From Blastocatellia bacterium (GTDB lineage Bacteria > Acidobacteriota > Blastocatellia > UBA7656), in the NCBI GenBank assembly GCA_035576605.1, contig DATLWF010000196.1, positions 9,430 to 73,429 of the forward strand: a DNA stretch of 64,000 nucleotides. Reading direction: 5' to 3'. Made by a program: the position numbers and the translations under genes. Below are positions 3,588-56,071 of the stretch, in pieces; positions within the stretch are counted from its first letter, which is position 1, and each line of letters starts with the position of its first letter. Below the pieces are notes generated by a model, which did not search any database, was not told the origin of the DNA, and saw only the letters and a list, made by a program, of their open reading frames with translations.

Positions 3588-3640
3588 CCGCGCCCGGCCC
3601 TCGAGGAAAACCAATACCGCGTCGTTGTTCCAGCGTGCGT

Positions 3641-6600
3641 CTAAGGCAGGTCAGTCAATTCGGACCGTGACTCTTCGAGACACCTCTTCAACGTCTCAGC
3701 CAGCTGGCGCACATGATTCGTCACGCACGTAATATGTCCGCCGGGAACCGTTTGAACGTCCACCGTCGTAGCTACTCTGCTCCATCCCGCAGTTGGATCG
3801 CCGTCTTCCAGCGCCAATTCTGAAGGCCACACGACAGTAACTCGGCCGCGATACGGTGCAGGGACGTATCCCTGGATCGCTCTAGAGTAGGCGGCAGTCG
3901 CACGCTTCCGCCCGTCGACTGGAATCGAGGCGTTGATGTCAGATCCCATCGGCGCGCCTTGCGAATTACCGTTTCTTTGAATGGAGGCAAACGCCACGGC
4001 CAGGTTTGCCGCCGCTGTCCAGCTTTTCTTCTTGATGAAAGCGATTCGCTCATCTGTCTGCAGTCGCAAGAATTCTGTAAGCCGGGCTCTGTAGTAATCC
4101 TTTATCTCCTGAACACGGGTAAGTCGCTCCCGGTATGCAAGGAAGCGATCCAGCCGTTGCTCGCTTCCCAGCTTGTCAAGATCGCTCAAGCGATTAACTA
4201 CCTTGTGGAGAAGCTTGAATCGAAGCGCGTTTCTCACAGAAGCGCAAAGAAGGACAAGCATATCGATCTTCTCACCCTGGGACTGCAATAGTCGCGCGAT
4301 CTCGAACGCCACTGCCGCGCCGTTACAATAACCGCCTAACAAGTACGGCCCTCGCGGCTGAAACTCCCGAAGCGCCGGCAGGTGGCTTTCGGCCATCGCC
4401 TCGATTGTCGAAGGAATCGGGCCCCCATCCAGTCCGTGGGGCTGAATTGCATAGAACGGCTGGTCATCTCCGAGTCCGTGCGCGAGATTTTGGCAATAAA
4501 ACCCGCCGCCGTTGAAATCGCCATGCAGGAAGAAAAACGGCCGCTTTGATCCTCCCTTGCCGATCTTAACAATGGCTGAGTGAGTCCGGGCCGTCTCTTG
4601 CTCGAGTATCGTAGCCGCTAGATGCTCGATGGTCGCCTCTTCGAATAGAGTCGCGAGTGGAAGCTGTCGCCCGGTTACTTGCTCGATCCGCCCCATCATT
4701 CGAACCGATAGGAGCGAATGCCCGCCCAGCTCAAAAAAGTCGTCTCGTATGCCGACCGGAGTTACCTTCAAGATTTCTTCCCAGATCTCGACGAGCTGTC
4801 GCTCAAGCGGATCTCGTGATCGAACATACTTATCGTTCGGAATAATCTGCGTTGAATCCGGCGCCGGCAATCTTGTGCGATCCACCTTTCCACTATTTGA
4901 GATCGGCAACTCATTCAGCGCTACGAACAAAGACGGAACCATGTATCCGGGAAGCTTCTTCTTCAAGAAGCTGCGCAATTGATCTCGGAGCTCGCTTTGC
5001 GCGAATGAATCGGCGCTTCCACGCGGCACAACGTAAGCCACAAGTCGTTTTTCACCGGGTTGGTCCTCTCTGGCGATGACCATGGCATCGTGGACGTCCG
5101 GGCTGGAGCACAGCGCTGTCTCAATCTCTCCCAACTCGATACGGAAGCCGTTTACCTTGACTTGATCGTCTATCCGACCAGCGATTTGAATATTGCCGTC
5201 GGGAAGATACAGTGCAAGATCACCTGTCTTGTATAACCGCGCGAAAGGCTCAGCACTGAACGGATCTGGTATGAATTTCTCTGCGGTGAGGTCAGGATGA
5301 TTCAGATATCCGCGGGCAAGGCCGGCTCCCCCGATGTGCAACTCGCCAATTACACCAACAGGAGCTGGTTGATGATGTCGGTCAAGGATATAAACTCGAG
5401 CATTGGGAATGGGTCGCCCCACCGGCGCATCCGAGACTCCAGCAGTTGATGGCTTCGGTTTCGATAAGTCCGCAATCGTAGCAACGATGGTCGCTTCGGT
5501 TGGCCCGTAGGTGTTCAGGAGCCGCACGCCTGAAGGAATGCGCTCGTGCCAGGCGGCCATTCGCTCGGGGAGGGCTCGCTCTCCTCCGATGATGACCAGC
5601 CGTGTCGTTTGAGGCAACGACAATCCTTCAGCAACAAGGCTGGTAGTCAGTTCGTGCCAAAAAGCCGTCGGCAAATCCAGCACAGTTATGCCCCAGTCTG
5701 TGCACTGCCGCAAGAATCCCGAGATAGACTTCAGCATAGCGTCAGTACGCAAGACAAGGGTTGCGCCTCGCGCGAGGGAGGAATAAATCTCTTCGGCGCT
5801 AGTGTCGAAGCTGCTGGAGGCGAATTGCAATACTCGATCGCCGGGGGTTATGCCGAATTCGTCGCTCGCGAAATCTATGTAGTTAGTTAAAGAGCGATGC
5901 TCTATCAGGACCCCTTTCGGTGTTCCCGTAGAGCCGGAGGTGTAGATCAGGTATGCGAGATTCTCGGGGGTCACACGGCGGGGCGGATTCTCGGTCGAAT
6001 GCCGACCGATCACCTCCCAGTCTGAATCAAGACAGATTACGCGCGCATCGGTTGCGGGTAGTTCCCTGGCGAGTTGCTCCAGGGTCAACAGCACCGGGGC
6101 GCTCGAATCTGCAAGCATCGCCGCCAATCGTTCTGTCGGATAAGCACTATCCAGCGGCACGTAGGCGCCACCGGCCTTCAAAATACCCAGCAAGCCCACG
6201 ATCATCTCAGTCGAACGACCTACCAACAGGCCAACCAGCTTCTCGGGCCCTACGCCGAGCGATGTCAGATAATGCGCCAGTTGATTAGCCCGCCTGTTTA
6301 GTTCGCCATAGGTCAATTGTGCGTTCGCGCAGATGACCGCAACCGCGTCCGGCGCCTTCGCCGCTTGCTCCTCAAACATCCGGTCAACCGAAGTCCGCGG
6401 TGAGTTGATTGAGTTATTGCTGTTCCATTCGACGACGATCTGATGTCGTTCGGCGGCCGTAAGCATCGGCAATGTCGAGACTGGTTCGTGGACGTAGGAC
6501 GACATGCCTTCAAGCATTGTCATCAAGTGTCCGAGCATTCGTCGGACCATTGCTTGGTCAAAACGTTGTCGGTCATATTCGATCTTCAGCAATAAGGTCT

Positions 6601-7825
6601 CGCCCGACCAGCCCGAGAGCGAGAGCGGGTAACTGGTCTCTTCGAAAAGCTGCAAGTCGCGAATCTCCCAGTTGGTCCAATGCGATTGAATCAGCGACTG
6701 AAGGTCGTAATTCTCGAACATCAGAATGCTGTCAAAGAGCGGCCTTCTGCTAATCACTTCAGACCATTCTTGAATTTTGGGCAGCGGAGTGTTTTCGTAT
6801 TCCCGCAGATTCAGATGTTGCGCCCGGAGTTCCTTGAGCCAGGAGCTAAGGGGTTGGTCTTCCGGAACGGTCACACGAATGGGCAGCGTGTTTATGAACA
6901 GACCAACAGATTCAGCGCCGTCGGATGAGCCCCGACACGCCCGTATCCCTCCAAACACAACATCCGCCTCGCCGCTATAGCGGCTGAGGAGCAGCGCCCA
7001 CGCAGCTTCCACCAGGGTGTAAAGCGTGACGCCGTTTTCCAAGGCAAGCGTTTTCAGCGTTGAAGTCAGAGCCGCCGTCAACCGAATCGCCTGCTCGTCG
7101 TGACCGGTCTGATCTCCCGAAATCGCACCGGGGTTCCGGGCCTCCGGAAGCGGAGTGGGACTGGTAAACCCGCTCAATGTGCTGCGCCAGAACCGCTCGG
7201 CTCTACTCATATCGATCTGTTGGAGACTCTCGATATGCTCACGAAACGGACGCGGCGGCTCTAAGCAGAGAGACGCGTCGTCACAAAGCGCCTCATAAAA
7301 CGCGTGAGTCTGACGCAGAACCTCGACAAGCGATCGGCCATCGAGCAACAGGTGATGAAACGTCAATACGAAATGAAAATCGCGCTCGCCGATATGAAAC
7401 AAGCCAATCCTCATCAACGGCGCCCGCGTTAGATCAAACCCCCTTGTACGATCGTTCTGAAGATAATCCTCGAGCCGCGCTTGCTGATCGACAGACCGCA
7501 CGGAACGCCAGTCCTCGTGGTGCAGTTTCAGGTGAGCAAGCGCGTGAACTTCCTGGTGAGGCTCATCGAGACCATCCCAGCGAAAGCTCGTTCTTAGAAT
7601 CGGATGCCGGTCCACAACCTGCCGCCATGCCCTCGCAAAGGCTTCTATGTCGAGATTGGCGTGAATAGTAAAAAGGAATTGCTCGATGTCAACGCCCGGC
7701 TCCCGAGCGTAAAGCGTATGAAAGAGCATCCCCTGTTGAAGCGGCGAGAGTGCATATGAGTCTTCAATTGCGCGGTGCCCCGGCATTCCGATTGGTTTTT
7801 CCGGTTCAACGGCGATGACGGTCAT
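3641..7825 (-). CDS. Single-module nonribosomal peptide synthetase, C-A-T-TE
   Basis: C domain HHLLLDGRS. A-domain core motifs LAYLIYTSGSTGTPKGV, YKTGDLA, GRIDDQVKVNGFRIELGEIE, NSGKVDR. Carrier motif LGGHSLL. C-terminal alpha/beta-hydrolase TE with GGYCNG in place of GxSxG (Cys codon TGT at 4325-4327, minus strand) and a distal GGH. Confidence 0.9.
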   Translation of the reverse strand: MTVIAVEPEKPIGMPGHRAIEDSYALSPLQQGMLFHTLYAREPGVDIEQFLFTIHANLDIEAFARAWRQVVDRHPILRTSFRWDGLDEPHQEVHALAHLKLHHEDWRSVRSVDQQARLEDYLQNDRTRGFDLTRAPLMRIGLFHIGERDFHFVLTFHHLLLDGRSLVEVLRQTHAFYEALCDDASLCLEPPRPFREHIESLQQIDMSRAERFWRSTLSGFTSPTPLPEARNPGAISGDQTGHDEQAIRLTAALTSTLKTLALENGVTLYTLVEAAWALLLSRYSGEADVVFGGIRACRGSSDGAESVGLFINTLPIRVTVPEDQPLSSWLKELRAQHLNLREYENTPLPKIQEWSEVISRRPLFDSILMFENYDLQSLIQSHWTNWEIRDLQLFEETSYPLSLSGWSGETLLLKIEYDRQRFDQAMVRRMLGHLMTMLEGMSSYVHEPVSTLPMLTAAERHQIVVEWNSNNSINSPRTSVDRMFEEQAAKAPDAVAVICANAQLTYGELNRRANQLAHYLTSLGVGPEKLVGLLVGRSTEMIVGLLGILKAGGAYVPLDSAYPTERLAAMLADSSAPVLLTLEQLARELPATDARVICLDSDWEVIGRHSTENPPRRVTPENLAYLIYTSGSTGTPKGVLIEHRSLTNYIDFASDEFGITPGDRVLQFASSSFDTSAEEIYSSLARGATLVLRTDAMLKSISGFLRQCTDWGITVLDLPTAFWHELTTSLVAEGLSLPQTTRLVIIGGERALPERMAAWHERIPSGVRLLNTYGPTEATIVATIADLSKPKPSTAGVSDAPVGRPIPNARVYILDRHHQPAPVGVIGELHIGGAGLARGYLNHPDLTAEKFIPDPFSAEPFARLYKTGDLALYLPDGNIQIAGRIDDQVKVNGFRIELGEIETALCSSPDVHDAMVIAREDQPGEKRLVAYVVPRGSADSFAQSELRDQLRSFLKKKLPGYMVPSLFVALNELPISNSGKVDRTRLPAPDSTQIIPNDKYVRSRDPLERQLVEIWEEILKVTPVGIRDDFFELGGHSLLSVRMMGRIEQVTGRQLPLATLFEEATIEHLAATILEQETARTHSAIVKIGKGGSKRPFFFLHGDFNGGGFYCQNLAHGLGDDQPFYAIQPHGLDGGPIPSTIEAMAESHLPALREFQPRGPYLLGGYCNGAAVAFEIARLLQSQGEKIDMLVLLCASVRNALRFKLLHKVVNRLSDLDKLGSEQRLDRFLAYRERLTRVQEIKDYYRARLTEFLRLQTDERIAFIKKKSWTAAANLAVAFASIQRNGNSQGAPMGSDINASIPVDGRKRATAAYSRAIQGYVPAPYRGRVTVVWPSELALEDGDPTAGWSRVATTVDVQTVPGGHITCVTNHVRQLAETLKRCLEESRSELTDLP

Positions 7826-7832
7826 GGCGTTA

Positions 7833-8996
7833 TCAAGTCAGTCGCGCGGGAGCTACTTCACTGGGTGGATCCAGCTCGATCACGTCGTACAGCTCGCGGA
7901 CCGCGCGCGCGGTCGCCATGCCCGGTTCATAGAAGAGCTCACTGGCCACCGCCCGCCGCGAAGCCGACTGGGAGTACGAATCGCCAAAGCATCTTTCGAC
8001 CGCGGCAATTGTTTCGCCAACATCTCGGACGGTTATCGATGCTTCGCGCAACAAATCTACATATTCAGGGTTGATGTCCGTTCTCGCGATGAGTTCCGGA
8101 ATGTCGATTCGAACAACCGGGCGATCAAGCAAAAGGTATTCGAACCCGACCGAACTGTGATCGGTGATCAATACGTCGGCCGCGGCGAGATAAGGACAGG
8201 CGTCGCTGCCATCAGCCAGCCATCCGCCACCGCGCCGAAGGATCGGTTCGAGGCGCGCCGCCCAGTCGATGCCGCCGGAATGTTTGTATTGCAGATCGCG
8301 GGACCGATCGTGCAGCTTGACGATCACCGCATAACCCGCGGCCACAAGCTTCTGCACCAGAGCTTCTCCCATCACGTTGAGCGATGAGTAAGGAGACCAT
8401 GTTGGCGCATAGAGAACCGTGCGCCTCGCAGGGTCGATGCCAAGCTCATCGAGCACGTCATCTCGACTAAGCGATCCATCGACCAGACAGTCAAGCTTTG
8501 GATAGCCGACCAGTCGCGCCGCCGGGCTATCGGCGTCAATGGCGCCCACACGGATGTAGTTTTCCATCCGTCGACGATTGATGAAAAACAGGCGGTCCCA
8601 GTCGCGCATCGAGCGGTCCGGGGTGTCATAAACGCGGCTGTACTTGCCAGCCACGCCGTGAAACATTTGAATGCGCCGCGTGCCCCTGGGGAGTGTCACC
8701 CATAGCATGTCGGCGACCAGGTACGCGCTGAATTTCATCAGCGCGGCGCGCGCCGGGCTTACGAGGTTGACATTGCCTCCGATCTCGCCATAAATCGTCT
8801 TCGCCGCGGACGGCTGTTCGCTCGCCGTGAAGAAGAACGTCACTCGCGAGTCTTGCATAGCGCGATAAATTGGAACAATGACCGCGGAGTTCATCGCCGT
8901 TCGCGCGTTGACCAGAACGCAGCGACCCGGGTGGATTCGCCGCTGCCATCGCGTATCCGTTTGCTGCACCCATTTCGTGATGTTGCTCAGAGGCAT
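7833..8996 (-). CDS. CDP-alcohol:polymer polyol-phosphate transferase, TagF/TagB/TarL family
   Basis: VLYAPTWSPY and VLITDHSSVGFEYLLLDRP match the TagF catalytic-domain signatures (LYAPTWR ... ITDYSS). ATG at 8996, 7 nt upstream of the NRPS start. Confidence 0.7.
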   Translation of the reverse strand: MPLSNITKWVQQTDTRWQRRIHPGRCVLVNARTAMNSAVIVPIYRAMQDSRVTFFFTASEQPSAAKTIYGEIGGNVNLVSPARAALMKFSAYLVADMLWVTLPRGTRRIQMFHGVAGKYSRVYDTPDRSMRDWDRLFFINRRRMENYIRVGAIDADSPAARLVGYPKLDCLVDGSLSRDDVLDELGIDPARRTVLYAPTWSPYSSLNVMGEALVQKLVAAGYAVIVKLHDRSRDLQYKHSGGIDWAARLEPILRRGGGWLADGSDACPYLAAADVLITDHSSVGFEYLLLDRPVVRIDIPELIARTDINPEYVDLLREASITVRDVGETIAAVERCFGDSYSQSASRRAVASELFYEPGMATARAVRELYDVIELDPPSEVAPARLT

Positions 8997-9008: not shown

Positions 9009-9791
9009 CTAAAAGCGTTCGCCGATAGCAGTTGTGGCAAAGGCAAGTGGGCGATCGAAAGTCAATTCCGCCTTTTCAATTTCAGGCAAGATCTCGCTAA
9101 TCGCTCGGTCGTAGTCCTCGGGAAAATCAATTTCGATCCAGGGCAATCCGCGCGTGCCGATGGCGTGCAGCGGCCGGACACGAGCAAATTCGCGGAATGC
9201 CCGCGGCGCCCATTCCCGGTCTGTTCCTTTCGCGATCAGCATCCCCATTTGTCTCGTGAGAATCGCGGCGCCGCGCGAACCGAATTTTACAATGCCGACA
9301 TTCTCACCATCTGCCTCATCGGGATTAATCGCTTTGCTTATGTCCACAACCCGTCCCGCTCTAACTTTGACCTTCATTTCTTCGTCTCCAAACCGAGCGG
9401 TTGTCTCGTCTTTATAGGCAATCAACAGCGCGTCCTCATAACGAGCGGTCAGCAGGTCAGTAATCAGTTGTGGGTGATAGAGCACGTCTGAGTTCAGAAC
9501 CACGAACCCATCGACAAGCCGATGTCTTGCAAGCCAGAGCGAGTAGAGGCTGCTTGTGCGGAAGAAGATAGGATTCTCGATATACTCGATATCAGGCCCG
9601 CACTCCCTTCGCACTGTGTCGGCGGAGAACCCGACCACTGCGCTTATGTGGTCGATGCCGGACTCACGAAGCGTCACAATCTGACGCTCGATGAGCGAGA
9701 GCGCTCCGACCCTTGCGAGGCACTTCGGCTTATCGCCGGCGACTCCTCTCAACCGTGATCCTTTGCCTGCTGCAAGAATGATCGCGTTCAT
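9009..9791 (-). CDS. Sugar/polyol-phosphate nucleotidyltransferase (LicC/TarI/IspD-like cytidylyltransferase fold)
   Basis: N-terminal MNAIILAAGKGSRL nucleotide-binding motif. C-terminal LPWIEIDFPEDYDRA. RBS AAGGAG upstream of ATG 9791. Confidence 0.7.
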   Translation of the reverse strand: MNAIILAAGKGSRLRGVAGDKPKCLARVGALSLIERQIVTLRESGIDHISAVVGFSADTVRRECGPDIEYIENPIFFRTSSLYSLWLARHRLVDGFVVLNSDVLYHPQLITDLLTARYEDALLIAYKDETTARFGDEEMKVKVRAGRVVDISKAINPDEADGENVGIVKFGSRGAAILTRQMGMLIAKGTDREWAPRAFREFARVRPLHAIGTRGLPWIEIDFPEDYDRAISEILPEIEKAELTFDRPLAFATTAIGERF

Positions 9792-12554: not shown

Positions 12555-13742
12555 TTAGGTAAACTGCGTGGCAACGGCCGCCCGAGCTAGTGGATAGCGC
12601 GGGCTGGCGGTTGTTTCGGGCTCTCGTCTGATATTATCGCGGCTCCCCGCAGTCTCACTGATACTCATTTCCAGAGTCCTGCTGAACGCATGGAGAAATG
12701 GTATGTATTGACCGGCTCCGAGCTCTACATCGCGGATGACAGCGTCAAACAGCTGGCGATAGTGGGTCACCAGCGAATTGGAGATTCCAATCCTCCGAGC
12801 GATGGTCGTTTGTGACGGAGATGAGAGATCGAAGTAACAATACCAGGCGACTCGCGCCAGCCGGCTGTATCGACGCGGCTTGTGTCTAACCACTTCTCGC
12901 ATCTTATCCAACAGTTCCACGGCAATCGCCTCGGCCTGCTGGTTAGTTTCGTTTTCGAGAAGTCGCTGCTCAGGCGTTGGTCTCTGGTCAGGAAAATCCA
13001 CCTTGAGTGGTTCCGGGTCCGAGACGGCGTCAGGCGTTACCGCTGCATCAATGGAAACAAACCGCGAATCTTCCACCGGCAGCTTGGACAACGCCAGAGA
13101 TCTTACAATTCGAACATCCAGCGGCGAGTCCACCGCCCTGAATATCTCGACTAAGAGATCAGTCAGATCCCGATTCGAAATAATTATGTGCGAGCTGCCG
13201 CCCCTTCCCGCTCGCCTCCGGTCACGTCCTCTATAAGCAACGTCCTTTAGCAAATCCTCCATGTTTTGATGGGCCCTTGTCGGCTTGTCGTCAGGCCATT
13301 CTCTCAACCCGAAAACCCTCGTGCTTAACTTGCCCTCGGAGTGGTTGGCTCCAAGTGTGCGCCGATATCTGCGAAACTCAGCGCTGGTTTGGACCAGATT
13401 GCTGATGCGGCGCGCCATCCGGTACGCTTCCGGCTGTCGCTCGCGCAACAGCAGCGAAACCAGGTTGGGAACTTCAATATGGTAAAGTTCATGCTCAATA
13501 TTCGCATTCGAATAGCCGGCGTCTACGTAATGCCGCCAGCGATCCTTCCGGTGGAGCTTTAGGAATAGATCTTGAGTCACATCCGCGTTCAGATCCTGTA
13601 GCCGTGCGCGCGCGATTCTGTCTGAGTTGAACAGAGTCCTGATTGACGAATGTCTCGATACTAACTTGAACAGTTTGTCCCACAATGCTGCAGCGTCATT
13701 GTCGGTAAGAATTTCAATCCAGCCCCTTGCTTGCTCGTTCAT
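12555..13742 (-). CDS. Hypothetical regulator: N-terminal sigma-70 region-2-like segment and C-terminal HTH separated by a long insert
   Basis: N-terminus WIEILTDNDAAALWDKLFKLV...DVTQDLFLKL resembles ECF sigma region 2. C-terminus TTIARRIGISNSLVTHYRQ is HTH-like. About 200 aa of basic/low-complexity sequence lie between. Confidence 0.35.
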   Translation of the reverse strand: MNEQARGWIEILTDNDAAALWDKLFKLVSRHSSIRTLFNSDRIARARLQDLNADVTQDLFLKLHRKDRWRHYVDAGYSNANIEHELYHIEVPNLVSLLLRERQPEAYRMARRISNLVQTSAEFRRYRRTLGANHSEGKLSTRVFGLREWPDDKPTRAHQNMEDLLKDVAYRGRDRRRAGRGGSSHIIISNRDLTDLLVEIFRAVDSPLDVRIVRSLALSKLPVEDSRFVSIDAAVTPDAVSDPEPLKVDFPDQRPTPEQRLLENETNQQAEAIAVELLDKMREVVRHKPRRYSRLARVAWYCYFDLSSPSQTTIARRIGISNSLVTHYRQLFDAVIRDVELGAGQYIPFLHAFSRTLEMSISETAGSRDNIRREPETTASPRYPLARAAVATQFT

Positions 13743-14109: not shown

Positions 14110-14979
14110 TTATGTAATGGAACCGGCCACCTGACCGTAGACAGGAAGGTCGGGGCGCGAGAGATCACTCGGCGTGATGTCCAGAGCTTCGATCACGTCG
14201 GCTATTATGTCGCGGAAAATCGTCGCCTGGCCCGCAGCGTAACCATACAACAGCGCGTTATCGCAGATGTTATTGATCACCCGCGGTATTCCGGCGGACG
14301 CCAGGCCGATCAATTCGATTGAGGACGGATCAAAGATATTGACCCGCCCAGCTCCGGCAATCCTCAGTCTGAAGCGAATGTAGTTATTGATCTCGTACAA
14401 ATATAGCGGCCTGATTGAACAGCGCAGCGATACCCGCTGCTTAAGCTGTCGCAGTCCGGGCTGATTCAGAATCTCCCGAAGCTCGGGCTGGCCGCAAAGA
14501 ACTATTTGCAAGAGCTTTTCGCTGTTTGTCTCAAAATTCGCCAGTAGCCGCACCTCTTCCAGCACGGCCGGCGAGAGCCCGTGCGCCTCATCTATGATCA
14601 GAACAGTGCGCAAACCGCGTGAGTGTCGTTGCGCCAGACAGGCGCCTATTGCATTCAAGAGGTCTGCCTTCGAAGCGGTTGAGCCGAGACCGAGATTGAG
14701 ACCGCCTGAGAGGAGTTGGAAAAACTCTGCGACCGTCACGAACGGATTGAATAAGTACACTGATAGAATGTCTGGACCGAATTGCTGCAGAACCGACCGC
14801 AAGGTGGTCGTCTTACCTGTGCCGACTTCGCCCGTGACGACCGCGAGCCCTTTGCTCTGTGATATACAATATTTCAGATTTGACACTACCTCCAGATGGC
14901 TGTCGGTTTTGTAGATGAACTTTGGATTTGGGGTTAATCCAAACGGTATCTCTTTGAGCCCATAAAACTCCGTGTACAT
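14110..14979 (-). CDS. ExeA/GspA-like AAA ATPase (PEP-CTERM locus secretion-ATPase type)
   Basis: MYTEFYGLKEIPFGLTPNPKFIY N-terminus, Walker A VTGEVGTGKTT, Walker B VLIIDEAH. ATG 14979 directly follows the upstream kinase-like gene's TAG (14980-14982). Confidence 0.8.
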   Translation of the reverse strand: MYTEFYGLKEIPFGLTPNPKFIYKTDSHLEVVSNLKYCISQSKGLAVVTGEVGTGKTTTLRSVLQQFGPDILSVYLFNPFVTVAEFFQLLSGGLNLGLGSTASKADLLNAIGACLAQRHSRGLRTVLIIDEAHGLSPAVLEEVRLLANFETNSEKLLQIVLCGQPELREILNQPGLRQLKQRVSLRCSIRPLYLYEINNYIRFRLRIAGAGRVNIFDPSSIELIGLASAGIPRVINNICDNALLYGYAAGQATIFRDIIADVIEALDITPSDLSRPDLPVYGQVAGSIT

Positions 14980-16653
14980 CTATCGTTCCCCCAGTCGAAA
15001 ATATCTACTGTCGGTATCCCCATACCGGCGCAAATACCGTGTAGGCCGCCGCCATTTGGCCTTGCCCTGGCGAAGGCGCTGCGACGTAGATGACGGTCTC
15101 GCGACAGGTTGCGGACGAACCGCGGCTCTTGCCTGAGTCGTGGCGCCCTGAGCGTTAGCCGGCTTGGCCTCCTGGTGTGTTTCGGCAGGCGGCTGATGGT
15201 CGCCGGCAGGCGGCGGACTGGTGACTACCGGCTTTTCTCCCGTTCCCTTGGAAGAGGGCAGGGCCGCCGTGCGATCGATGCCGGCATCGCTGCCCTCGGC
15301 CGTCGGTTCCGAAACTGTCCGATTTGGGAACCTGGAACGGTCAGCGCGTGCGAGTATTAATATCCCGATTAATGCCGCAATCGCCATCGCTAGGACCAGC
15401 ATCACCGGTCTCCATTGACTGCGTAATGCGAACGTCGAGCTTAGTTCATGGCTTAGCAGCACATCGCGTGGTGTTTCGAGGCGCTCATTCGAAGGCGGAT
15501 CTGGTTCTCTTTCCTCATCTACGGTCTCGGTCCCCAGATCCAGGGTATGAACCTGATCAACCGGCGACTCGATCACCCTGATCGACGGCGGCTCCCACGG
15601 TTCACGGCTCGCGCCATCCAAGAGGCTCTCCAGTTCGATAGGACTTTGGTCGTCTTCGTATCCAATGTCCAACGGTTGCGACTCACAACCATCGCTCCAG
15701 CCCGCCATGGTAGGAGGTTGACTTGTCGAGCGGTCCAGCGCCTCACGGAAGGAAGTCACATCTTGAAATCGTTTGTTGGGGTCTTTTTCAAGCATGCGCG
15801 TGATAATCGCCGACAACGAAAACGGGATATCCGAGCAATAAAGATGTGGTGCCCGGGGCGAATGGGTCACATGCCTTTGCCTGACAGTGTCAGGGTCTTC
15901 CGAATCTACCGGCAGCCGATCGGTGAGCATCTGGTAGAAGACGACTCCCAGGGAATACAGATCGCTGCGCGCATCGAGCGCTTCTCCACGTGCCTGTTCG
16001 GGACTGATATAGTGCAAGGGACAGGCGCTGGCGCGCTCTTTGTGCGCCCAGGCAAGATCGCCACGGGCCTCCACCCCGAAGTCGGATAGCAAGGCTGCGC
16101 CATCCGTGCCAATTAGAACGTTTTCGGGATGAACGCTGAGGTGGAGAACCCCGAGCGAATGGGCATAGTCGAGCGCATCGGCGATCTGTAGAACGATTCC
16201 TAGTGCGAGCCCAAGGTCAAGCCAGCCCCGGCGGTCCAGCAACATTTTTAATGTCTCGACGTCGGGCCGACGCTCCAAAATTGAGAAATGTGTGCCGTTG
16301 ATCTCCTGAGGTCCGCTTGATCTGACAATATTGCGGTGCGATAGCCTTGCGGCCGCTGATGCCTCCAGACGAAACAACTCTAGTCGCCTTAGATCGTCAC
16401 CGTGCGCATGCAGGACCTTTAAGGCTACCGGTCTATCATCGCGCCGATCGCGTCCATGGTAGACGGCAATACCGCCCCGATCGCTCACCAAACTGAGACA
16501 ATCGAATCTACTGGACAAAACCTCGGTAGTATCGCACTCGGTAGTATCGCAGACGCTTCCACCATTGGTAGGCGTTTTTGAGACAGGTGCCAGGGCGCTA
16601 GCCAAGTTCGGATCGTTGGTGCCGGCTGCTTTTTGGAGTTCAAACCCGCTCAT
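14980..16653 (-). CDS. Membrane-anchored Hanks-type Ser/Thr protein kinase-like protein, predicted pseudokinase
   Basis: Kinase subdomains present: ALKVL (beta3 Lys), LSDFG, SPEQ, DLYSLGVVFYQMLT. The catalytic loop reads GVLHLSVHPENVLI instead of HRDLKPEN; Ser codon AGC at 16135-16137 replaces the catalytic Asp. One TM segment PVMLVLAMAIAALIGILILA, then a Pro/Ala-rich C-terminal tail. Confidence 0.75.
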   Translation of the reverse strand: MSGFELQKAAGTNDPNLASALAPVSKTPTNGGSVCDTTECDTTEVLSSRFDCLSLVSDRGGIAVYHGRDRRDDRPVALKVLHAHGDDLRRLELFRLEASAAARLSHRNIVRSSGPQEINGTHFSILERRPDVETLKMLLDRRGWLDLGLALGIVLQIADALDYAHSLGVLHLSVHPENVLIGTDGAALLSDFGVEARGDLAWAHKERASACPLHYISPEQARGEALDARSDLYSLGVVFYQMLTDRLPVDSEDPDTVRQRHVTHSPRAPHLYCSDIPFSLSAIITRMLEKDPNKRFQDVTSFREALDRSTSQPPTMAGWSDGCESQPLDIGYEDDQSPIELESLLDGASREPWEPPSIRVIESPVDQVHTLDLGTETVDEEREPDPPSNERLETPRDVLLSHELSSTFALRSQWRPVMLVLAMAIAALIGILILARADRSRFPNRTVSEPTAEGSDAGIDRTAALPSSKGTGEKPVVTSPPPAGDHQPPAETHQEAKPANAQGATTQARAAVRPQPVARPSSTSQRLRQGKAKWRRPTRYLRRYGDTDSRYFRLGER

Positions 16654-17012
16654 TAGGCGTTCACCTATCGGTCGAACGTGACCGGTACGTGTCGATTGTG
16701 AGACAGCGATAGTTGCTTGAAAAGTCCTATACCTACTGGAATAGCTACCCGACGGTCCAGGACGAAAGATCCGTTTGCTGGTGGGATGTTGCCTTCATAA
16801 TCCCGGACTCGTAGGCTATCTAAACCCATCACCCTTTCTTATATCCGTAATCAACTGAAACCTACAAAAAGCGTACGCGCCGCGTGCACCGGGCGTCGCC
16901 GCACTCGCGGTTCAGCAAGCCGGTTTTTGCGAGCGCTCGCGCGTGCGCTATCGTGTTGACGGCACACATAAACCAGAGGATGTCCGATTATCTTGCACAA
17001 AGGGGCCGGGTT

Positions 17013-19019
17013 CTAGGGTAAGCCTTGAAGAGCCCGCATCGACGCCCTCTCAACCACTTCAAGATCCGCGCCGATATCGCGGCCATTCGTCCCCGCGTTC
17101 TTGTAGGGACTGGTGTTTGCGAGCCGATAGTTTCGACTCCCTTTATCGACGAAGCCTACGTCATCGAGCGTGGCTGGATAGTAGTTCTTCCTGGGATATT
17201 TGGAGCTTTGGCCGCCAACTATCACGTTTCTTTTTAACGATGATGCAGGAAAGTATTTATCAATCGACAAAACTCCGGCGCTCGAACCGTCTCCGATGAT
17301 CCCATAGTCATTGTGAGGAGCAATATTATTGGTGAATACAAATCCTTGATTCGGCACTCCGTAGGCAGTGATGATATTGCCCGTTTGAAGGATCGTATTG
17401 TGATCCACCCTCACATCAACGGTTTCTGTAATTTGCAGGAACCTGCCATTGCCTCCCCACTGGCTGCCCCCGACGTCGTCGAAGACATTGCCGGTGATCT
17501 CGACTCCCGTTACCTGTTCGCTAGGGTGGAGATTATCTCGTCCGAGAATATTGATCCCGGCAGCGGTGTGACGAAGGATGTTGTTGGTAAAGCTGACACC
17601 TTCGACTACCGACCATGGGGCGGCGCCATCCTGATTGCGAACCGTAAACAAGACGCCGAATCCGCTTTGAGCGTCCACCCAGTTATTCTCAAATACATTC
17701 CCGTCAATGCGGACTCGACGCGCATTCTTTAGCTCGAACAAATTCTTAACGGACCATCGTGTGCCTGAGTCGGGCGGAGCCGAATCCTGGCGCGCTGATG
17801 ATGAATCTCCAACATCATTAAATGAAGAAGCGCTGGTGGAATAGTAGACCCAACTCCTGGTCGGCGAACTCGGCGGATCGCTTGTTCTGTAAACGCGAAA
17901 CTCGGTTGCGAAGTCACCTTGCGACCAGGCCAGGTTAGACGCGGTCTGAGCTGGCGTGAGCGTTACCGATGTTTCGTCAGAACCGATAGAGTTGGCTATC
18001 GCAGAGTAACCCGCTCGGCCGCGGGCGCTTATTCGGTAGTAATATGTGCTTCCAGCCACAAGAGCGCCGGCGCTGTCACTTCCCGTGGCGACAACTCCCG
18101 TCGGTTTGGCGAAGATCCCTTCCTTCCACTTAAGTGGCTTAGCGCAGTGATTATTGCGAAACTCGATATCCGCCGGCACAAGGTACGGGATCTTAGGATC
18201 GGAGCCCCCGAAAAGAACGTTCTCTCCGGCAGCTTCGAGATAGTTGTTGATGATATTGAAAGGACCGGGCCCGTTCCACCCCGCAATAGCCTGAGTGTCG
18301 AAACCCAGACCGTGACAATCGGAAATGTAGGAGTTGACAATATCGGTTCTCGCGCTGTTGAGGGCTATGCCGCGCGATACGTCCGACGTCGGGTTCCCGT
18401 GAATGTAGCAGCGGTCAATAACCAGGTCGTGCGGCAACAACGTCGAGTCCGTTTCGGTACCTTCACCGAACCTGATGATTCCATAGTTAAGCATCACGTC
18501 GAGACCGATCGTGAACTCTATACCCTCGAAGCGATAGTGGTGGGCGCCGGACAGGGTCATTAAGACAGGTTGAGAATTAGGGCTCTCCAGCGTAGCCATC
18601 GCCGTCGCATCAGCAGGAGTCACCCGCACGCCTTCCGGTGGCAGCGTCTCGTCGAGAGCCGACGAGCGAATCGTGATCCAGTCCGACCCTGCGCCGGCTT
18701 TTGTCTTCTCGGGCAAAAAGAAATTACCGCGCAGGAGAGCGCCCGCTTGCAACGTAATGACATCCCCGGGATTGGCCAGGATGAGAGACGCTTGAAAGTC
18801 TTCGCTTGTCGCAACATCGTATTTTCGCAGGGACTCGCGTCGCAATGCCGGCTGCGATAATCGGCCTCCTGTACGAGCGAGCGCCGTAGAATAAGGCAGC
18901 GGTTCGAGAACGAAAACAGCTAATGTGACCGCCGCCAGTATGATTGATTTGCCGCGTTTGAGATATCGCCGGCGAACGGCTCTCCCAGGTAACACAAATG
19001 TCCACATTGAAACACCCAA
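17013..19019 (-). CDS. Right-handed parallel beta-helix repeat protein (paralog 1), signal-anchored
   Basis: IDRCYIHGNPTSDVSRGIALNS, AIAGWNGPGPFNIINNYLEAAGENVLFGG and repeated N-x-x-H/N beta-helix rungs. About 55-60% identity to CDS 31351..33132 and to the N-terminal 500 aa of CDS 51831..55115. The track start at 19019 is TTG; alternative ATG at 19007. Confidence 0.7.
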   Translation of the reverse strand: MGVSMWTFVLPGRAVRRRYLKRGKSIILAAVTLAVFVLEPLPYSTALARTGGRLSQPALRRESLRKYDVATSEDFQASLILANPGDVITLQAGALLRGNFFLPEKTKAGAGSDWITIRSSALDETLPPEGVRVTPADATAMATLESPNSQPVLMTLSGAHHYRFEGIEFTIGLDVMLNYGIIRFGEGTETDSTLLPHDLVIDRCYIHGNPTSDVSRGIALNSARTDIVNSYISDCHGLGFDTQAIAGWNGPGPFNIINNYLEAAGENVLFGGSDPKIPYLVPADIEFRNNHCAKPLKWKEGIFAKPTGVVATGSDSAGALVAGSTYYYRISARGRAGYSAIANSIGSDETSVTLTPAQTASNLAWSQGDFATEFRVYRTSDPPSSPTRSWVYYSTSASSFNDVGDSSSARQDSAPPDSGTRWSVKNLFELKNARRVRIDGNVFENNWVDAQSGFGVLFTVRNQDGAAPWSVVEGVSFTNNILRHTAAGINILGRDNLHPSEQVTGVEITGNVFDDVGGSQWGGNGRFLQITETVDVRVDHNTILQTGNIITAYGVPNQGFVFTNNIAPHNDYGIIGDGSSAGVLSIDKYFPASSLKRNVIVGGQSSKYPRKNYYPATLDDVGFVDKGSRNYRLANTSPYKNAGTNGRDIGADLEVVERASMRALQGLP

Positions 19020-28777: not shown

Positions 28778-28794
28778 TCTCCTTTCAATGGCGT

Positions 28795-55115: not shown

Positions 55116-56071
55116 AGCCGCCTCTCTTTCAGAGCCGTCTTGACTGGGCGTTTAGGACGCACCGGTTACGTCAAATGGGCGGAGGCATACCTGATCGGTG
55201 AACCAAGGGCAGTTAGATTTCGGAACGACGCCGCGAGGGAGATTCCGTGCGGTCTCGGTCTTGGTAGGGCTGGAGCGCTAGGGGCCTAGAGCGAAGCCCA
55301 CAAAGAATTGATAGTAAACACAGCAAAACTACAGCGATTTCCAGCTATAAGGGGCCAGGAGGTGATTAGATTTCGTCGATTGCCAGGGGGCCACCTAACA
55401 ACCGCCAAGGTATCACGGGCCGATATCAGTGTCAATAATCTTTTCCGTGCATAATCTCTTCCGTGCAAGATTTTGTCCCCGCTCTTCTTGCCTGATCTTT
55501 CCTTCAAGCGCGGTTCTAACACGAGAGCAAAGCTGTTTAGTCGGCACCACCTGTCCAACTGAGTGCTTGTCAGTCAGCAACGGACGAATCTCAAGTTCCG
55601 GCCGACACACTATCGGCCGAGATTGACGGCGACATTGATGTTAATTACACTCGACGATCATCAACTTCCCGGAGATGGCTTGATGTATCTGGGAGAGGTT
55701 GATGCGCTTGCCGCTTCATATGAAAAGCGCGGACGAAAAGCTTAAGAAGATAGCTAGATTGGTCGAATCGCTGGACGATGAATTGAATATCCTGGAGTCT
55801 GCACACCACGTGCAGTTTGAGACGAAGGCTAGCCTGCAAGACAAGCTTTCCGCAGCAACCCGGACAAGATCCGCATTAACTAGAGCACGCCGTCTCAGAG
55901 ACCTTATAGCGCAAACTCTGATCGAGCCCAAGGAGTAAAGCTTACGGTTAGCATCGAGAGTCCATTTTCGGCGCCGCTGGCGAAAATTGGACAAAACTTG
56001 CAAAGCGAGGCTGATTCGGACTTTCTGAAGTCAAGAAAGTTTCTAGCATTATGCTTGAAGGCGGTACCGCG

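What the first reader, a model, noticed from the sequence alone, without database searches (positions are those of the whole stretch)
14110..16653. Membrane Hanks-type pseudokinase placed immediately upstream of an ExeA-like ATPase
The kinase-like protein keeps the beta3 lysine, DFG and SPE motifs but has HLSVHPEN where HRDLKPEN is expected, so it lacks both the catalytic Asp and the catalytic-loop Lys. It has one TM helix and a Pro-rich extracytoplasmic tail. Its TAG stop abuts the ATG of the ExeA/GspA-like AAA ATPase typical of PEP-CTERM EPS loci. In type II secretion, GspA partners with a bitopic GspB. Here that partner position is occupied by a pseudokinase, suggesting a scaffold or sensor recruited to the ATPase.
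Basis: partly seen in the sequence, partly recalled or inferred. Interest (0 to 1): 0.7.

Follow-up and report, generated by a model that had tools for sequence, protein, structure and literature searches.

The report
Dead kinase paired with export-type ATPase
A membrane protein that folds like a protein kinase but has lost its catalytic residues is encoded directly in front of a small, intact ATPase in the exopolysaccharide gene clusters of Blastocatellia (Acidobacteriota), which points to a conserved, non-catalytic kinase-ATPase partnership that I found no description of.

Summary
On the minus strand, a 557-aa PknB-like protein (14980-16653) ends in a TAG that abuts the ATG of a 289-aa AAA_22 ATPase (14110-14979). 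The kinase-like protein has HLSVHPEN where HRDxKPxN is expected, and no HRD or GxGxxG anywhere. It has one TM helix and a disordered, basic tail with 12% Pro.

This is a clade, not a one-off. About 45 homologues encoded next to such ATPases all carry H-L in place of H-R-D, and the catalytic Asp, Lys and Asn positions are variable. Of 80 related ATPase loci in Blastocatellia genomes, 40 have the pseudokinase immediately upstream (gaps of 0-77 nt in the 22 trio loci measured).

Paralogues are either soluble or carry a genuine TonB C-terminal domain. In 18 loci and in this window, a third conserved gene follows.

The ATPase scores below the TIGR03015 cutoff. It lacks GspA's TM and peptidoglycan-binding domains. 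No exosortase or PEP-CTERM signal is in the window.

Best reading: the dead kinase is a non-catalytic adaptor and membrane anchor for the ATPase in EPS export or assembly, loosely analogous to ExeAB. A sigma-control role is the main rival. I rate it a new variant of a known kind, interest about 0.6.

The parts
14980..16653 (-). Gene for the 557-aa bitopic Hanks-type pseudokinase ('VLHL' clade)
   Evidence: ORF. Pkinase 102 bits. PknB alignment. Clade alignments. AF2 model with mean pLDDT 71.7 and kinase domain about 96. Foldseek top hits are Stk1/PknB, TM 0.80-0.90 on the target.
15721..16545 (-). Kinase-like domain (aa 37-311), predicted cytoplasmic
   Evidence: AF2 pLDDT 93-98 over this range. 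Pfam match covers residues 63-297.
16120..16143 (-). Degenerate catalytic loop HLSVHPEN (aa 171-178), replacing HRDxKPxN
   Evidence: Among about 45 aligned ATPase-linked homologues none has Arg at the HRD position, 2 have Asp, none has Lys at the catalytic-loop Lys position (the commonest residue there is Gln, 22), and 16 keep the Asn.
15334..15414 (-). Single transmembrane helix (aa about 414-440)
   Evidence: Kyte-Doolittle maximum 3.04 at residue 417. AF2 helix 414-439 at high pLDDT.
14983..15333 (-). Disordered Pro-rich, very basic C-terminal tail (aa 441-557) ending in the conserved KWRRPxRY...RYxR motif. Predicted periplasmic.
   Evidence: 12% Pro, pI 11.1; last 45 aa have pI 11.9. pLDDT below 50. 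The motif is conserved in alignment A1. Paralogues carry TonB_C at this position.
14110..14979 (-). Gene for the 289-aa soluble AAA_22 (ExeA/TIGR03015-like) ATPase, with start codon abutting the pseudokinase stop
   Evidence: No hydrophobic segment. 63-81% identity among the family representatives aligned in A3, with 105 invariant columns including Walker A and B.
14806..14832 (-). Walker A GEVGTGKTT (aa 50-58) of the ATPase
   Evidence: Invariant columns G50 E51 V52 G53 G55 K56 T57 T58.
12555..13742 (-). Third conserved gene: a 395-aa divergent sigma-70/ECF-like protein (sigma2-like N-terminus, about 140-aa insert, sigma4-like HTH C-terminus)
16786..16800 (-). Conserved 15-nt motif TTATGAAGGCAACAT, 147 nt upstream of the pseudokinase start. 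Candidate promoter or operator.
   Evidence: TTATGAnnnCA(A/T)CAT lies on the coding strand 73-325 nt upstream of the pseudokinase gene in 11 of 17 non-redundant trio loci, and near-matches in two more loci bring it to 13. It is the only exact copy in the window. There are 20 hits in 1.07 Mb of loci against about 0.5 expected.
16654..17012 (-). 359-nt intergenic region upstream of the pseudokinase-ATPase pair (contains the motif)

Best explanation
The 557-aa protein is a catalytically dead, PknB-derived kinase domain re-used as a protein-protein module. It is the dedicated partner of the intact, soluble ExeA/TIGR03015-like AAA+ ATPase encoded directly after it.

In this version, the cytoplasmic pseudokinase domain docks the ATPase at the inner membrane. 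Its single TM helix and its long Pro-rich, basic, TonB/ExeB-like tail reach into the periplasm towards the peptidoglycan or the outer-membrane polysaccharide export parts. ATP turnover by the ATPase would thereby be coupled to assembly or operation of the Wzx/Wzy-type exopolysaccharide export apparatus of this locus.

Shown:
- loss of catalytic residues across the clade;
- retention of the kinase fold;
- an intact and highly conserved ATPase;
- conserved, tight gene pairing and co-inheritance;
- EPS-locus context;
- TonB_C-bearing paralogues.

Inferred:
- physical binding of the two proteins;
- periplasmic location of the tail;
- the link to export or assembly rather than to regulation.
For: (1) Pseudokinase status is clade-wide. 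Every aligned ATPase-linked homologue has H-L instead of H-R-D. The Asp position holds R/Q/N/K/G/S/A and other residues. The Lys position holds Q/H/N/S and other residues. The Asn is kept in 16 of 46, the DFG Asp in 25 of 44 and the beta3 Lys in 28 of 43. The structural residues are nearly invariant: alphaC Glu, HRD-His, DFG Phe-Gly, SPE and the alphaF Asp. The clade is sharply separated from canonical HRDxKPxN/GxGGM kinases in the top 120 hits.

(2) The fold is retained. AF2 pLDDT is about 96 over aa 37-311, and the model superposes on Stk1/PknB with TM 0.80-0.90.

(3) The pairing is conserved. 40 of 80 ATPase loci from Blastocatellia genomes have the pseudokinase immediately upstream on the same strand. 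Intergenic gaps are 0-77 nt in the 22 trio loci measured. Pairwise-identity matrices of the two proteins correlate (Pearson 0.76, Mantel 0 of 2000).

(4) The ATPase evolves slowly (mean 66% identity) and the pseudokinase fast (44%). This fits a conserved enzyme with an adaptable adaptor.

(5) The ATPase belongs with export machinery. In kinase-less paralogous loci it sits between the Wzz-like chain-length determinant and the BY-kinase, followed by the priming transferase and the OPX export protein. In this window and in L008, Wzz and the BY-kinase are adjacent with no ATPase between them. This suggests the paired ATPase fills that role.

(6) The kinase-less ATPases carry instead a C-terminal extension of about 70 aa ending in KFFSRVRVTR.

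(7) Paralogous pseudokinases next to the ATPase have TM + spacer + TonB_C at 63.8 bits. ExeB, partner of the ExeA ATPase, is a basic, bitopic, proline-enriched TonB-like protein. ExeA's ATPase domain is needed for ExeAB complex formation (PMC4098917).

(8) There are precedents for membrane pseudokinases as scaffolds in envelope machines, such as YukC/EssB in the T7SSb (titles and abstracts).
Against: - There is no direct evidence that the two proteins touch. Complex prediction could not be run.
- Most of the 22 pairs without the sigma-like gene (19 of 22) use short pseudokinase ORFs of about 305-425 aa, whose length leaves no room for a TM segment and tail. A periplasm-spanning function therefore cannot be the general role of the pair.
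- The tail of this particular protein has no folded domain and no detectable similarity to E. coli GspB or to the TonB_C paralogue.
- Charged residues flanking the TM helix are slightly more positive on the C-terminal side, which is unusual for an 'out' segment.
- The ATPase is only distantly related to a bona fide GspA (BLASTP E 0.063).
- The function of TIGR03015-type ATPases is itself unknown. No paper in the library mentions the family.
- A sigma-like gene follows in the trio loci, which is equally compatible with a regulatory role.
Confidence: 0.45

Rival explanations
1. Regulatory module. The bitopic pseudokinase, the ATPase and the downstream sigma-70/ECF-like protein form a trans-envelope signalling unit. 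The pseudokinase acts like an anti-sigma or sigma-regulator (FecR-like, or a dead version of the PknT/PknS kinases that activate ECF43 sigma factors). It holds or releases the sigma-like protein, with the ATPase as remodeller or switch, to control transcription of the EPS locus.
Against: The sigma-like gene is separated from the ATPase by 113-485 nt, whereas the pseudokinase-ATPase gap is 0-77 nt. 22 of the 40 pairs have no sigma-like gene nearby. Ten kinase-less ATPase loci have a sigma-like gene on the opposite strand. The sigma-like gene therefore tracks the EPS locus or the ATPase rather than the pseudokinase. Sigma homology rests on a predicted structure only: the Pfam and PDB sequence searches and hhalign against RpoE are not significant. 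A dead kinase cannot phosphorylate the sigma.
Confidence: 0.25
2. Phospho-acceptor or decoy. The dead kinase domain is a substrate or docking site for active Hanks kinases or for the locus's BY-kinase. It recruits other regulators, as the M. tuberculosis MviN pseudokinase domain recruits FhaA after PknB phosphorylation (my own knowledge). The ATPase is a co-regulated but not physically bound neighbour.
For: Blastocatellia encode many active Ser/Thr kinases closely related to this clade. The locus has a BY-type tyrosine autokinase. The conserved N-terminal MSGFELKK and juxtamembrane RExWExPSIxVI motifs could be docking or phosphorylation sites.
Against: This does not explain the strict upstream adjacency and co-inheritance with the ATPase. 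The activation segment has lost the Thr residues and carries a conserved W-A-H helix instead. No FHA-domain gene was seen in the window.
Confidence: 0.1
3. Atypical but active enzyme. The domain still binds nucleotide and catalyses phosphotransfer or another reaction (for example AMPylation or glutamylation, as in SelO or SidJ) using non-canonical residues.
For: This particular member keeps the beta3 Lys, the alphaC Glu, the DFG Asp and the catalytic-loop Asn. Some sequence-defined pseudokinases have turned out to be active (reviews listed).
Against: Across the clade, each of these residues is dispensable: beta3 Lys 28 of 43, DFG Asp 25 of 44, Asn 16 of 46. The Gly-rich loop is degenerate. No alternative acidic residue is conserved in or near the catalytic loop.
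Confidence: 0.07
4. Decaying kinase gene or accidental neighbour with no specific function.
For: The tail and linker are poorly conserved and disordered.
Against: Full-length ORFs are maintained in more than 40 loci at 31-89% identity. 25 columns are invariant and the fold prediction is very confident. Order, strand and spacing relative to the ATPase are conserved.
Confidence: 0.02

Closest known systems
ExeA/ExeB (GspA/GspB) secretin-assembly complex of type II secretion
   Same: An AAA_22-type ATPase is genetically coupled to a bitopic, basic, proline-enriched, TonB-like membrane protein. In ExeAB the ATPase domain is required for complex formation (PMC4098917). Paralogues of the pseudokinase carry a genuine TonB_C domain.
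   Different: The ATPase here is soluble (289 aa) and lacks GspA's TM, C39-like and PG_binding_1 domains. Similarity to E. coli GspA is only at P-loop level. The partner has a 275-aa dead kinase domain that GspB lacks, and shows no similarity to E. coli GspB. Gene order is reversed. The context is an EPS locus, not a T2SS.
TIGR03015 XrtA/PEP-CTERM system-associated ATPase
   Same: Best family match, full length (residues 1-267 against profile positions 1-267 of 269), in an EPS locus whose parts resemble XrtA-associated families.
   Different: The score of 245.9 is below the cutoff of 324.5. No exosortase or PEP-CTERM proteins are in the window. No kinase-like partner has been described for TIGR03015, and no paper in the library mentions the family.
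PknB/Stk1-type Hanks Ser/Thr kinases
   Same: Closest sequence and structural relatives: PknB E 1e-36 and TM 0.80-0.90. The architecture is the same: cytoplasmic kinase domain, one TM helix, extracytoplasmic C-terminus.
   Different: The HRD Arg and Asp, the catalytic Lys, the Gly-rich loop and the activation-loop Thr residues are lost. There are no PASTA domains.
Described bacterial Ser/Thr pseudokinase families (ActPs1-3, GLW, CP1, DYD, DLHK; Kannan lab atlas and review)
   Same: A conserved bacterial clade with degraded catalytic motifs. CP1 members are physically linked to a predicted ATPase, COG3899 (PMC12599244).
   Different: According to the atlas, all seven families show substitution of the VAIK Lys, partial in CP1 (34%) and DYD (60%). 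This clade mostly keeps the Lys and is defined by H-L for H-R-D. CP1 and DLHK lack TM regions. Neither paper mentions Acidobacteria or TonB, and the atlas preprint does not mention ExeA. Here the ATPase is a separate AAA_22 gene, not a fused COG3899 domain.
YukC/EssB membrane pseudokinase of the type VIIb secretion system
   Same: A bitopic membrane protein with a cytoplasmic pseudokinase domain that serves as a central scaffold of an envelope secretion machine (titles and abstracts).
   Different: Different lineage and fold subtype (Firmicutes, not PknB-like in sequence), different machine, and no ExeA-like partner. The comparison rests on abstracts and my own knowledge, not on a test here.
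ECF sigma factors controlled by adjacent transmembrane Hanks kinases (ECF43: PknT/EcfP, PknS/EcfK)
   Same: A transmembrane kinase-fold protein is encoded near a sigma2+sigma4-type protein that lacks a full DAED motif.
   Different: The kinase here is dead. An ATPase is interposed. The sigma-like protein has an insert of about 140 aa and is not recognised by sigma-70 sequence models.
TonB
   Same: TM anchor plus a Pro-rich periplasmic spacer. Paralogues end in a TonB_C domain.
   Different: This protein has no TonB_C domain. Its N-terminus is a kinase-like domain instead of TonB's short cytoplasmic stub. No ExbB or ExbD genes are adjacent.

Membership tests
Hanks-type (eukaryotic-like) protein kinase, Pfam PF00069 | Bilobal kinase fold recognised by the family model | tested here: met
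   Pkinase 102.1 bits against a cutoff of 31.7. AF2 model superposes on PknB/Stk1 with TM 0.80-0.90.
Hanks-type (eukaryotic-like) protein kinase, Pfam PF00069 | Catalytic loop HRDxKxxN with catalytic Asp and Lys | tested here: not met
   HLSVHPEN aligns to PknB HRDVKPAN. There is no HRD or D.K..N elsewhere. The loss is clade-wide.
Hanks-type (eukaryotic-like) protein kinase, Pfam PF00069 | Gly-rich loop GxGxxG and beta3 Lys / alphaC Glu pair | tested here: inconclusive
   The Gly-rich loop is degenerate (SDRGGIAVY; no GxGxxG). The Lys and Glu are present in this member, but the Lys is kept in only 28 of 43 clade members.
Pseudokinase (sequence definition: lacks at least one of VAIK-Lys, HRD-Asp, DFG-Asp) | Absence of at least one catalytic-triad residue | tested here: met
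   The HRD Asp is replaced by Ser here and by varied residues in the clade.
Pseudokinase (functional definition) | No phosphotransfer activity | not testable with these tools
   Needs an autophosphorylation or substrate assay on purified protein.
Published bacterial pseudokinase families (ActPs1-3, GLW, CP1, DYD, DLHK) | Family-specific motif patterns, including substitution of the VAIK Lys (partial in CP1 and DYD) | tested here: inconclusive
   The family models were not available. By the motifs as described this clade differs: Lys mostly kept, H-L signature, TM present. No mention of Acidobacteria in either paper.
GspA/ExeA | N-terminal AAA_22-type ATPase domain with Walker A and B | tested here: met
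   AAA_22 103.3 bits. E. coli GspA also matches AAA_22.
GspA/ExeA | TM segment plus periplasmic C39-like and peptidoglycan-binding domains | tested here: not met
   289 aa, no hydrophobic segment, no such Pfam domains. E. coli GspA has GspA_C39-like and PG_binding_1.
GspA/ExeA | Direct sequence relatedness to a bona fide GspA, and T2SS gene context | tested here: not met
   BLASTP E 0.063; hhalign probability 15%, P-loop only. No T2SS genes found in the window. Only E. coli GspA was compared; Aeromonas ExeA was not available.
TIGR03015 XrtA/PEP-CTERM system-associated ATPase | Score at or above the curated cutoff of the family model | tested here: not met
   245.9 bits against a cutoff of 324.5, although the match is full length.
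TIGR03015 XrtA/PEP-CTERM system-associated ATPase | Co-occurrence with exosortase XrtA and PEP-CTERM proteins | tested here: not met
   No exosortase hit among the ORFs of 200 aa or more that were scanned. No PEP-CTERM-like C-termini in the window. The rest of the genome was not examined.
GspB/ExeB | Bitopic, basic protein with a proline-enriched periplasmic region | tested here: met
   One TM helix; tail pI 11.1 and 12% Pro. Features of ExeB as described in PMC4098917. This is a resemblance only.
GspB/ExeB | Sequence homology to GspB | tested here: not met
   No alignment with E. coli GspB at E of 100 or below.
TonB | C-terminal TonB_C domain (PF03544) | tested here: not met
   Absent in this protein. 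Present in paralogues such as L024 at 63.8 bits and P0035.
Sigma-70 family / ECF sigma (third gene, 12555-13742) | sigma2 and sigma4 domains | tested here: inconclusive
   [not shown]
ECF43-type kinase-activated sigma systems | Active transmembrane Ser/Thr kinase that phosphorylates the sigma | tested here: not met
   The neighbouring kinase-fold protein lacks the catalytic residues.
Anti-phage defence kinases (PADLOC PD-T4-6, MADS) | Specific match beyond the generic kinase domain, and defence-island context | tested here: not met
   Only kinase-domain-level hits. NCBIfam MAD6 scores 104 bits against a cutoff of 460. The context is an EPS locus.

The most novel reading that the evidence does not exclude
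The pseudokinase, the ATPase and the sigma-like protein together form a previously unknown kind of trans-envelope signalling and energising device. In it, a dead kinase domain has replaced the usual cytoplasmic modules of TonB/ExeB-like or FecR-like proteins. The periplasmic TonB-like tail (a full TonB_C domain in paralogues) would report the state of the outer-membrane polysaccharide export machinery or of the peptidoglycan. The pseudokinase would transmit this across the membrane by conformational change. The AAA+ ATPase would then convert it into assembly work and/or release of a dedicated, highly divergent sigma factor that drives the EPS locus through the TTATGAnnnCAACAT element.
Probability: 0.15. 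Interest if true: 0.8.

Novelty: new variant of a known kind. Interest (0 to 1): 0.6.

Why it matters
Bacterial Hanks-type pseudokinases are barely explored. The seven families catalogued so far have no assigned functions and, apart from CP1 (fused to a COG3899 ATPase domain) and DLHK (an ATPase gene in its operon), no obvious partner (PMC12599244).

This clade comes with an obligate genomic partner: an intact ExeA/TIGR03015-like ATPase whose own role in exopolysaccharide loci has never been established. It also comes with natural architectural variants (soluble, TM + basic tail, TM + TonB_C). Together these form a ready-made experimental series for asking what a dead kinase does to an AAA+ ATPase.

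The finding also suggests how soluble 'PEP-CTERM-type' ATPases are tethered to the envelope. It provides a concrete handle on EPS production in Blastocatellia, which are abundant soil Acidobacteriota and for which EPS genetics has hardly been studied.

Practically, these genes are annotated in public records as 'serine/threonine-protein kinase'. That is probably misleading.

Tried and rejected
- An exhaustive HMMER search with that family's profile found 244 representatives and did not reach the canonical sigma-70 family. It gave no bridge to canonical sigma factors. Longer relatives showed no informative fusions.
- Comparisons with E. coli GspA and GspB showed no real similarity beyond the P-loop. 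Comparison of the tail with the TonB_C paralogue showed none either.
- The sigma-70 promoter and terminator scan of 12.4-17.2 kb gave fewer hits than shuffles and nothing usable.
- PADLOC gave only generic kinase hits, so I rejected an anti-phage reading.
- A search for PEP-CTERM sorting signals in all window ORFs found none.
- I considered the conserved TTATGA... motif as the start of a leader peptide and rejected it. The downstream frames differ in length and sequence, and the pattern of conservation does not follow codon positions.
- Literature searches for pseudokinase + ExeA, for TIGR03015, and for TonB C-terminal domain + kinase + Acidobacteria found nothing. The Blastocatellia EPS search returned nine papers, none relevant.
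- Complex prediction (pseudokinase + ATPase) was not possible with the single-chain tool.

Full report
**1. What is at the coordinates**

The finding spans two minus-strand genes. One is a 557-aa ORF at 14980-16653. The other is a 289-aa ORF at 14110-14979. The DNA reads ...GGGGGAACGA-TAG-ATG-TAC..., so the TAG stop of the first gene directly abuts the ATG of the second.

The window has about 55% G+C. From about 2.9 kb to about 55 kb it is an almost unbroken run of minus-strand genes. An identical protein is annotated in a Blastocatellia (Acidobacteriota) MAG as 'serine/threonine-protein kinase'.

**2. The kinase-like protein is a predicted pseudokinase**

- It matches Pfam Pkinase at 102 bits, and M. 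tuberculosis PknB at E 1e-36.
- In that alignment, PknB's HRDVKPAN lines up with HLSVHPEN. The HRD Arg and Asp and the catalytic-loop Lys are replaced, and the Asn is kept.
- The Gly-rich loop is degenerate (SDRGGIAVY).
- No HRD, D.K..N or GxGxxG string occurs anywhere in the protein.
- An AlphaFold2 model built on 45 family sequences gives pLDDT of about 96 over residues 37-311. It also shows a helix in the activation segment (198-209), a confident TM helix at 414-439, and disorder elsewhere.
- The model superposes on Stk1/PknB structures with TM 0.80-0.90.
- Hydropathy agrees on a single TM segment. The tail (441-557) is 12% Pro with pI 11.1.

**3. The loss is a property of a clade**

Full-length homologues (31-89% identity) come from Blastocatellia and other Acidobacteriota MAGs and from unlabelled metagenome contigs. 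All have V-L-H-L-x-hydrophobic-x-P in place of the HRD loop.

I extracted every kinase-like ORF next to a related ATPase and aligned them to the family HMM:

| Position | Result |
|---|---|
| HRD Arg | Arg never present; Leu in 45, Val in 1 |
| HRD Asp | R 11, Q 10, N 6, K 5, others; Asp in only 2 |
| Catalytic-loop Lys | Q 22, H 7, N 6, S 5, others |
| Catalytic-loop Asn | kept in 16 |
| DFG Asp | kept in 25 of 44 |
| beta3 Lys | kept in 28 of 43 |

By contrast, the alphaC Glu, the HRD His, the DFG Phe-Gly, SPE, the alphaF Asp and a W-A-H motif in the activation segment are nearly invariant.

Among the 120 best database hits, the 'HL' clade is sharply separated from canonical GxGGM / HRDxKPxN kinases. 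This is the signature of a fold kept for structure, not for catalysis.

**4. The ATPase**

- It matches AAA_22 at 103 bits. Walker A (GEVGTGKTT) and Walker B (VLIIDEAH) are invariant in the family.
- Its best curated match is TIGR03015, the XrtA/PEP-CTERM-associated ATPase. The match is end to end but scores 245.9 bits, below the cutoff of 324.5.
- It has no hydrophobic segment.
- It has none of the C39-like and PG-binding domains that E. coli GspA carries.
- Similarity to E. coli GspA is confined to the P-loop region.
- It is therefore 'ExeA-like' only at superfamily level. It is not a GspA orthologue.

**5. The locus**

The window is a large Wzx/Wzy-type exopolysaccharide locus. It contains:

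- a chain-length determinant, a BY-type tyrosine autokinase, a priming transferase (TIGR03013, above cutoff) and an OPX export protein;
- an O-antigen-ligase-like protein and a flippase;
- many glycosyltransferases, two AsnB-type amidotransferases, a deacetylase and a formyltransferase;
- a heparinase-like protein and beta-helix proteins;
- a glycerophosphotransferase, a nucleotidyltransferase, and an NRPS-like module with its PPTase.

Several parts resemble XrtA-associated families, but mostly below cutoff. I found no exosortase and no PEP-CTERM sorting signal in the 64 kb. 'PEP-CTERM locus' is thus only partly right.

**6. The pairing is conserved**

Contigs carrying homologues at 36-42% (kinase) identity show the same order: beta-helix protein, pseudokinase, 289-aa AAA_22 ATPase, a protein of about 400 aa with no Pfam hit, GT2, flippase, nucleotidyltransferase, glycerophosphotransferase. 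Three further contigs, found through the ATPase, again show pseudokinase, ATPase and the 400-aa protein, even where the surrounding genes differ.

A scan of 185,579 species genomes with the ATPase alignment returned 80 loci. All are from Blastocatellia or other Acidobacteriota MAGs, apart from nine MAGs labelled Clostridia, Heliobacteriaceae or Heliomicrobium. There are several paralogues per genome. HMM searches of all ORFs in these loci gave the following:

| Loci | Kinase-like gene immediately upstream, same strand | 400-aa protein |
|---|---|---|
| 18 | yes | directly downstream, same strand |
| 22 | yes | absent from the flank |
| 10 | no | present, a few kb (1-5 kb) away on the opposite strand |
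| 30 | no | absent from the flank |

Gaps between pseudokinase and ATPase are 0-77 nt in the 22 trio loci measured. Gaps between ATPase and the third gene are 113-485 nt.

Pairwise-identity matrices of the kinase domains and the ATPases correlate (Pearson 0.76; Mantel 0 of 2000). The ATPase is much better conserved, at mean 66% against 44%. This shows co-inheritance. It does not by itself prove binding.

**7. Three architectures of the partner**

- Pseudokinases in trio loci are of the type seen here: TM helix, Pro-rich spacer and a very basic C-terminal motif.
- The pairs without the third gene mostly use short, apparently soluble pseudokinases, with ORFs of about 305-425 aa.
- In at least three loci the pseudokinase is about 700 aa: pseudokinase, TM, Pro/Ala-rich spacer and a genuine TonB C-terminal domain. 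An example is L024, with TonB_C at 63.8 bits. One TonB_C-bearing member (P0035) is not next to an ATPase.

All these loci are polysaccharide loci.

**8. Where the ATPase sits when there is no pseudokinase**

In the one kinase-less locus I annotated (L055), the ATPase lies between the Wzz-like chain-length determinant and the BY-kinase, followed by the priming transferase and the OPX protein. In the window and in L008, Wzz and the BY-kinase are adjacent with nothing between them. The two kinase-less ATPases I translated have an extra C-terminal extension of about 70 aa ending in a conserved KFFSRVRVTR. The 289-aa paired ATPases lack it.

This places the ATPase functionally with the export and polymerisation core. 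It also suggests that the pseudokinase may supply a tethering or adaptor function that is provided in another way in the unpaired paralogues. That last step is inference.

**9. The third gene**

The 395-aa protein (12555-13742, minus strand) has no Pfam hit. It belongs to a small family: 113 close relatives and 244 representatives in an exhaustive search of 1.84 billion proteins.

- SigH, WhiG, SigK, AlgU, BldN and SigW;

The sequence has a sigma2.2-like D-L-T-Q-D-L-F-L-K-L motif and a C-terminal HTH. The two are separated by an insert of about 140 aa.

Sequence-based tests are not significant. I therefore call it sigma-70/ECF-like with moderate confidence. ECF sigma factors encoded next to transmembrane Hanks kinases, rather than anti-sigma factors, are known (ECF43: PknT/EcfP, PknS/EcfK; PMC8999054). 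Here, however, the kinase is dead and an ATPase is interposed.

**10. How it most likely works**

The common denominator of all variants is the pseudokinase domain plus the ATPase. The variable parts are the C-terminal output of the pseudokinase and the presence of the sigma-like gene.

The best-supported model (confidence about 0.45) is that the dead kinase domain is a non-catalytic adaptor that binds the ATPase. In the present architecture it would also anchor the ATPase to the inner membrane and extend a TonB/ExeB-like tail into the periplasm, linking ATP turnover to assembly or operation of the EPS export apparatus.

The analogy with ExeAB is functional, not homologous. ExeA is an AAA ATPase with a TM segment and a PG-binding domain. 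ExeB is a basic, bitopic, proline-enriched, TonB-like protein that contacts the secretin (PMC4098917).

The main rival (about 0.25) is that the trio is a regulatory unit controlling the sigma-like protein. The two are not exclusive. Minor rivals are a phospho-acceptor or decoy role, residual atypical catalysis, and decay. See the rival list for the evidence on each.

**11. Comparison with what is known, and novelty**

The bacterial Ser/Thr-kinase atlas and the accompanying review describe seven pseudokinase families: ActPs1-3, GLW, CP1, DYD and DLHK. All show substitution of the VAIK Lys, partial in CP1 and DYD. CP1 is fused to a COG3899 ATPase domain. Neither paper mentions Acidobacteria or TonB, and the atlas preprint does not mention ExeA.

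No paper in the searchable library combines pseudokinase with ExeA, or mentions TIGR03015, or describes kinase-TonB_C proteins in Acidobacteria. The search of Blastocatellia EPS literature returned nothing relevant.

Membrane pseudokinases as scaffolds of envelope machines do have precedents, such as YukC/EssB. I therefore rate this as a new variant of a known kind. It is a previously undescribed 'VLHL' pseudokinase clade with an obligate ExeA/TIGR03015-like ATPase partner, TonB_C-bearing paralogues and an associated divergent sigma-like protein.

Interest is about 0.6. The finding is real, conserved and testable, and it touches two poorly understood protein classes. It is confined to a hard-to-culture lineage, and the mechanism remains inferred.

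**12. Limits**

- All functional statements rest on sequence, predicted structure and gene neighbourhood.
- The survey of 80 loci is capped at the best matches (54% identity or more to the ATPase). The distribution outside Blastocatellia is therefore unknown.
- Only E. coli GspA and GspB were available as T2SS comparators.
- Complex prediction could not be run.

Noticed in passing
[not shown]
   Followed up: yes
window 16786-16800 (-); also L001:9914, L003:9676, L006:6067, L007:6152, L008:6185 and 14461, L009:4194, L011:1306, L016:4216, L018:4158, L019:4207, L020:4213, L081:5912: A 15-nt motif, TTATGAnnnCA(A/T)CAT, is conserved on the coding strand 73-325 nt upstream of the pseudokinase gene across orthologues that share only 35-50% protein identity. 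There are occasional extra copies upstream of other genes in EPS loci. It gives 20 hits in 1.07 Mb against about 0.5 expected. It is a candidate promoter or operator, possibly the target of the sigma-like protein.
   Followed up: partly
L024:3871-5964, L026:934-3063, L028:3874-5943; P0035, P0037, P0047, P0053, P0054, P0057, P0059, P0062: Proteins of about 600-760 aa combine the same dead kinase domain, one TM helix, a Pro/Ala-rich spacer and a genuine TonB C-terminal domain. Several are annotated 'TonB family protein'. Three sit directly upstream of the ATPase. P0035 does not.
   Followed up: partly
L055:5986-7020, L078:6001-7083 (kinase-less ATPase paralogues): ATPase paralogues without a pseudokinase partner sit between the Wzz-like and BY-kinase genes. 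They carry a C-terminal extension of about 70 aa, apparently disordered, ending in a conserved KFFSRVRVTR motif that the 289-aa paired ATPases lack.
   Followed up: partly
window 2880-3614 (-), 3641-7825 (-), 7833-8996 (-), 9009-9791 (-): Inside the EPS locus are a 4'-phosphopantetheinyl transferase, a single-module NRPS-like protein (C-A-T-TE, 1394 aa), a CDP-glycerol glycerophosphotransferase and a nucleotidyltransferase. The arrangement is conserved in L001. It suggests a teichoic-acid-like glycerophosphate-containing polymer decorated with an amino or acyl group.
   Followed up: no
window 56051-56413 (+): A small ORF encodes a stand-alone PilZ domain (35.8 bits against a cutoff of 22.5). 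It lies in the otherwise gene-poor region 55.1-58.5 kb just beyond the EPS locus and is a possible c-di-GMP receptor.
   Followed up: partly
window 17013-19019 (-), 31351-33132 (-), 51831-55115 (-): There are three paralogous right-handed beta-helix proteins. The third is fused to PKD/TIG domains. The first lies immediately upstream of the pseudokinase and is syntenic in L001 and L003. They are possibly polysaccharide lyases, hydrolases or epimerases.
   Followed up: no
window 25956-27434 (-), 27383-28951 (-): A DUF362 protein and a PaaK/CapK-like adenylating ligase form an overlapping gene pair. The pair is conserved in related loci (L001, L003, L007).
   Followed up: no
window 61758-63911 (-), 61137-61757 (-), 60146-61099 (-): A TPR-CHAT (caspase-like) protein is followed by two proteins with no significant Pfam domain. 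One of these is a coiled-coil membrane protein. They are unrelated to the EPS locus.
   Followed up: no
L026, L027, L049, L052, L054, L056, L076, L085, L086: MAGs labelled 'uncultured Clostridia', 'Heliobacteriaceae' or 'Heliomicrobium' carry ATPase loci 56-69% identical to the Blastocatellia ones, with the same pseudokinase partners. Their taxonomic labels look wrong.
   Followed up: no
L030:4210-5892, L031:4393-5916, L032:4118-5908: In three trio loci the kinase-like partner is even more degenerate. The N-lobe columns do not align, the HRD His is also lost, and HMM scores are 169-218. This suggests continuing erosion of kinase features while the pairing is kept.
   Followed up: no
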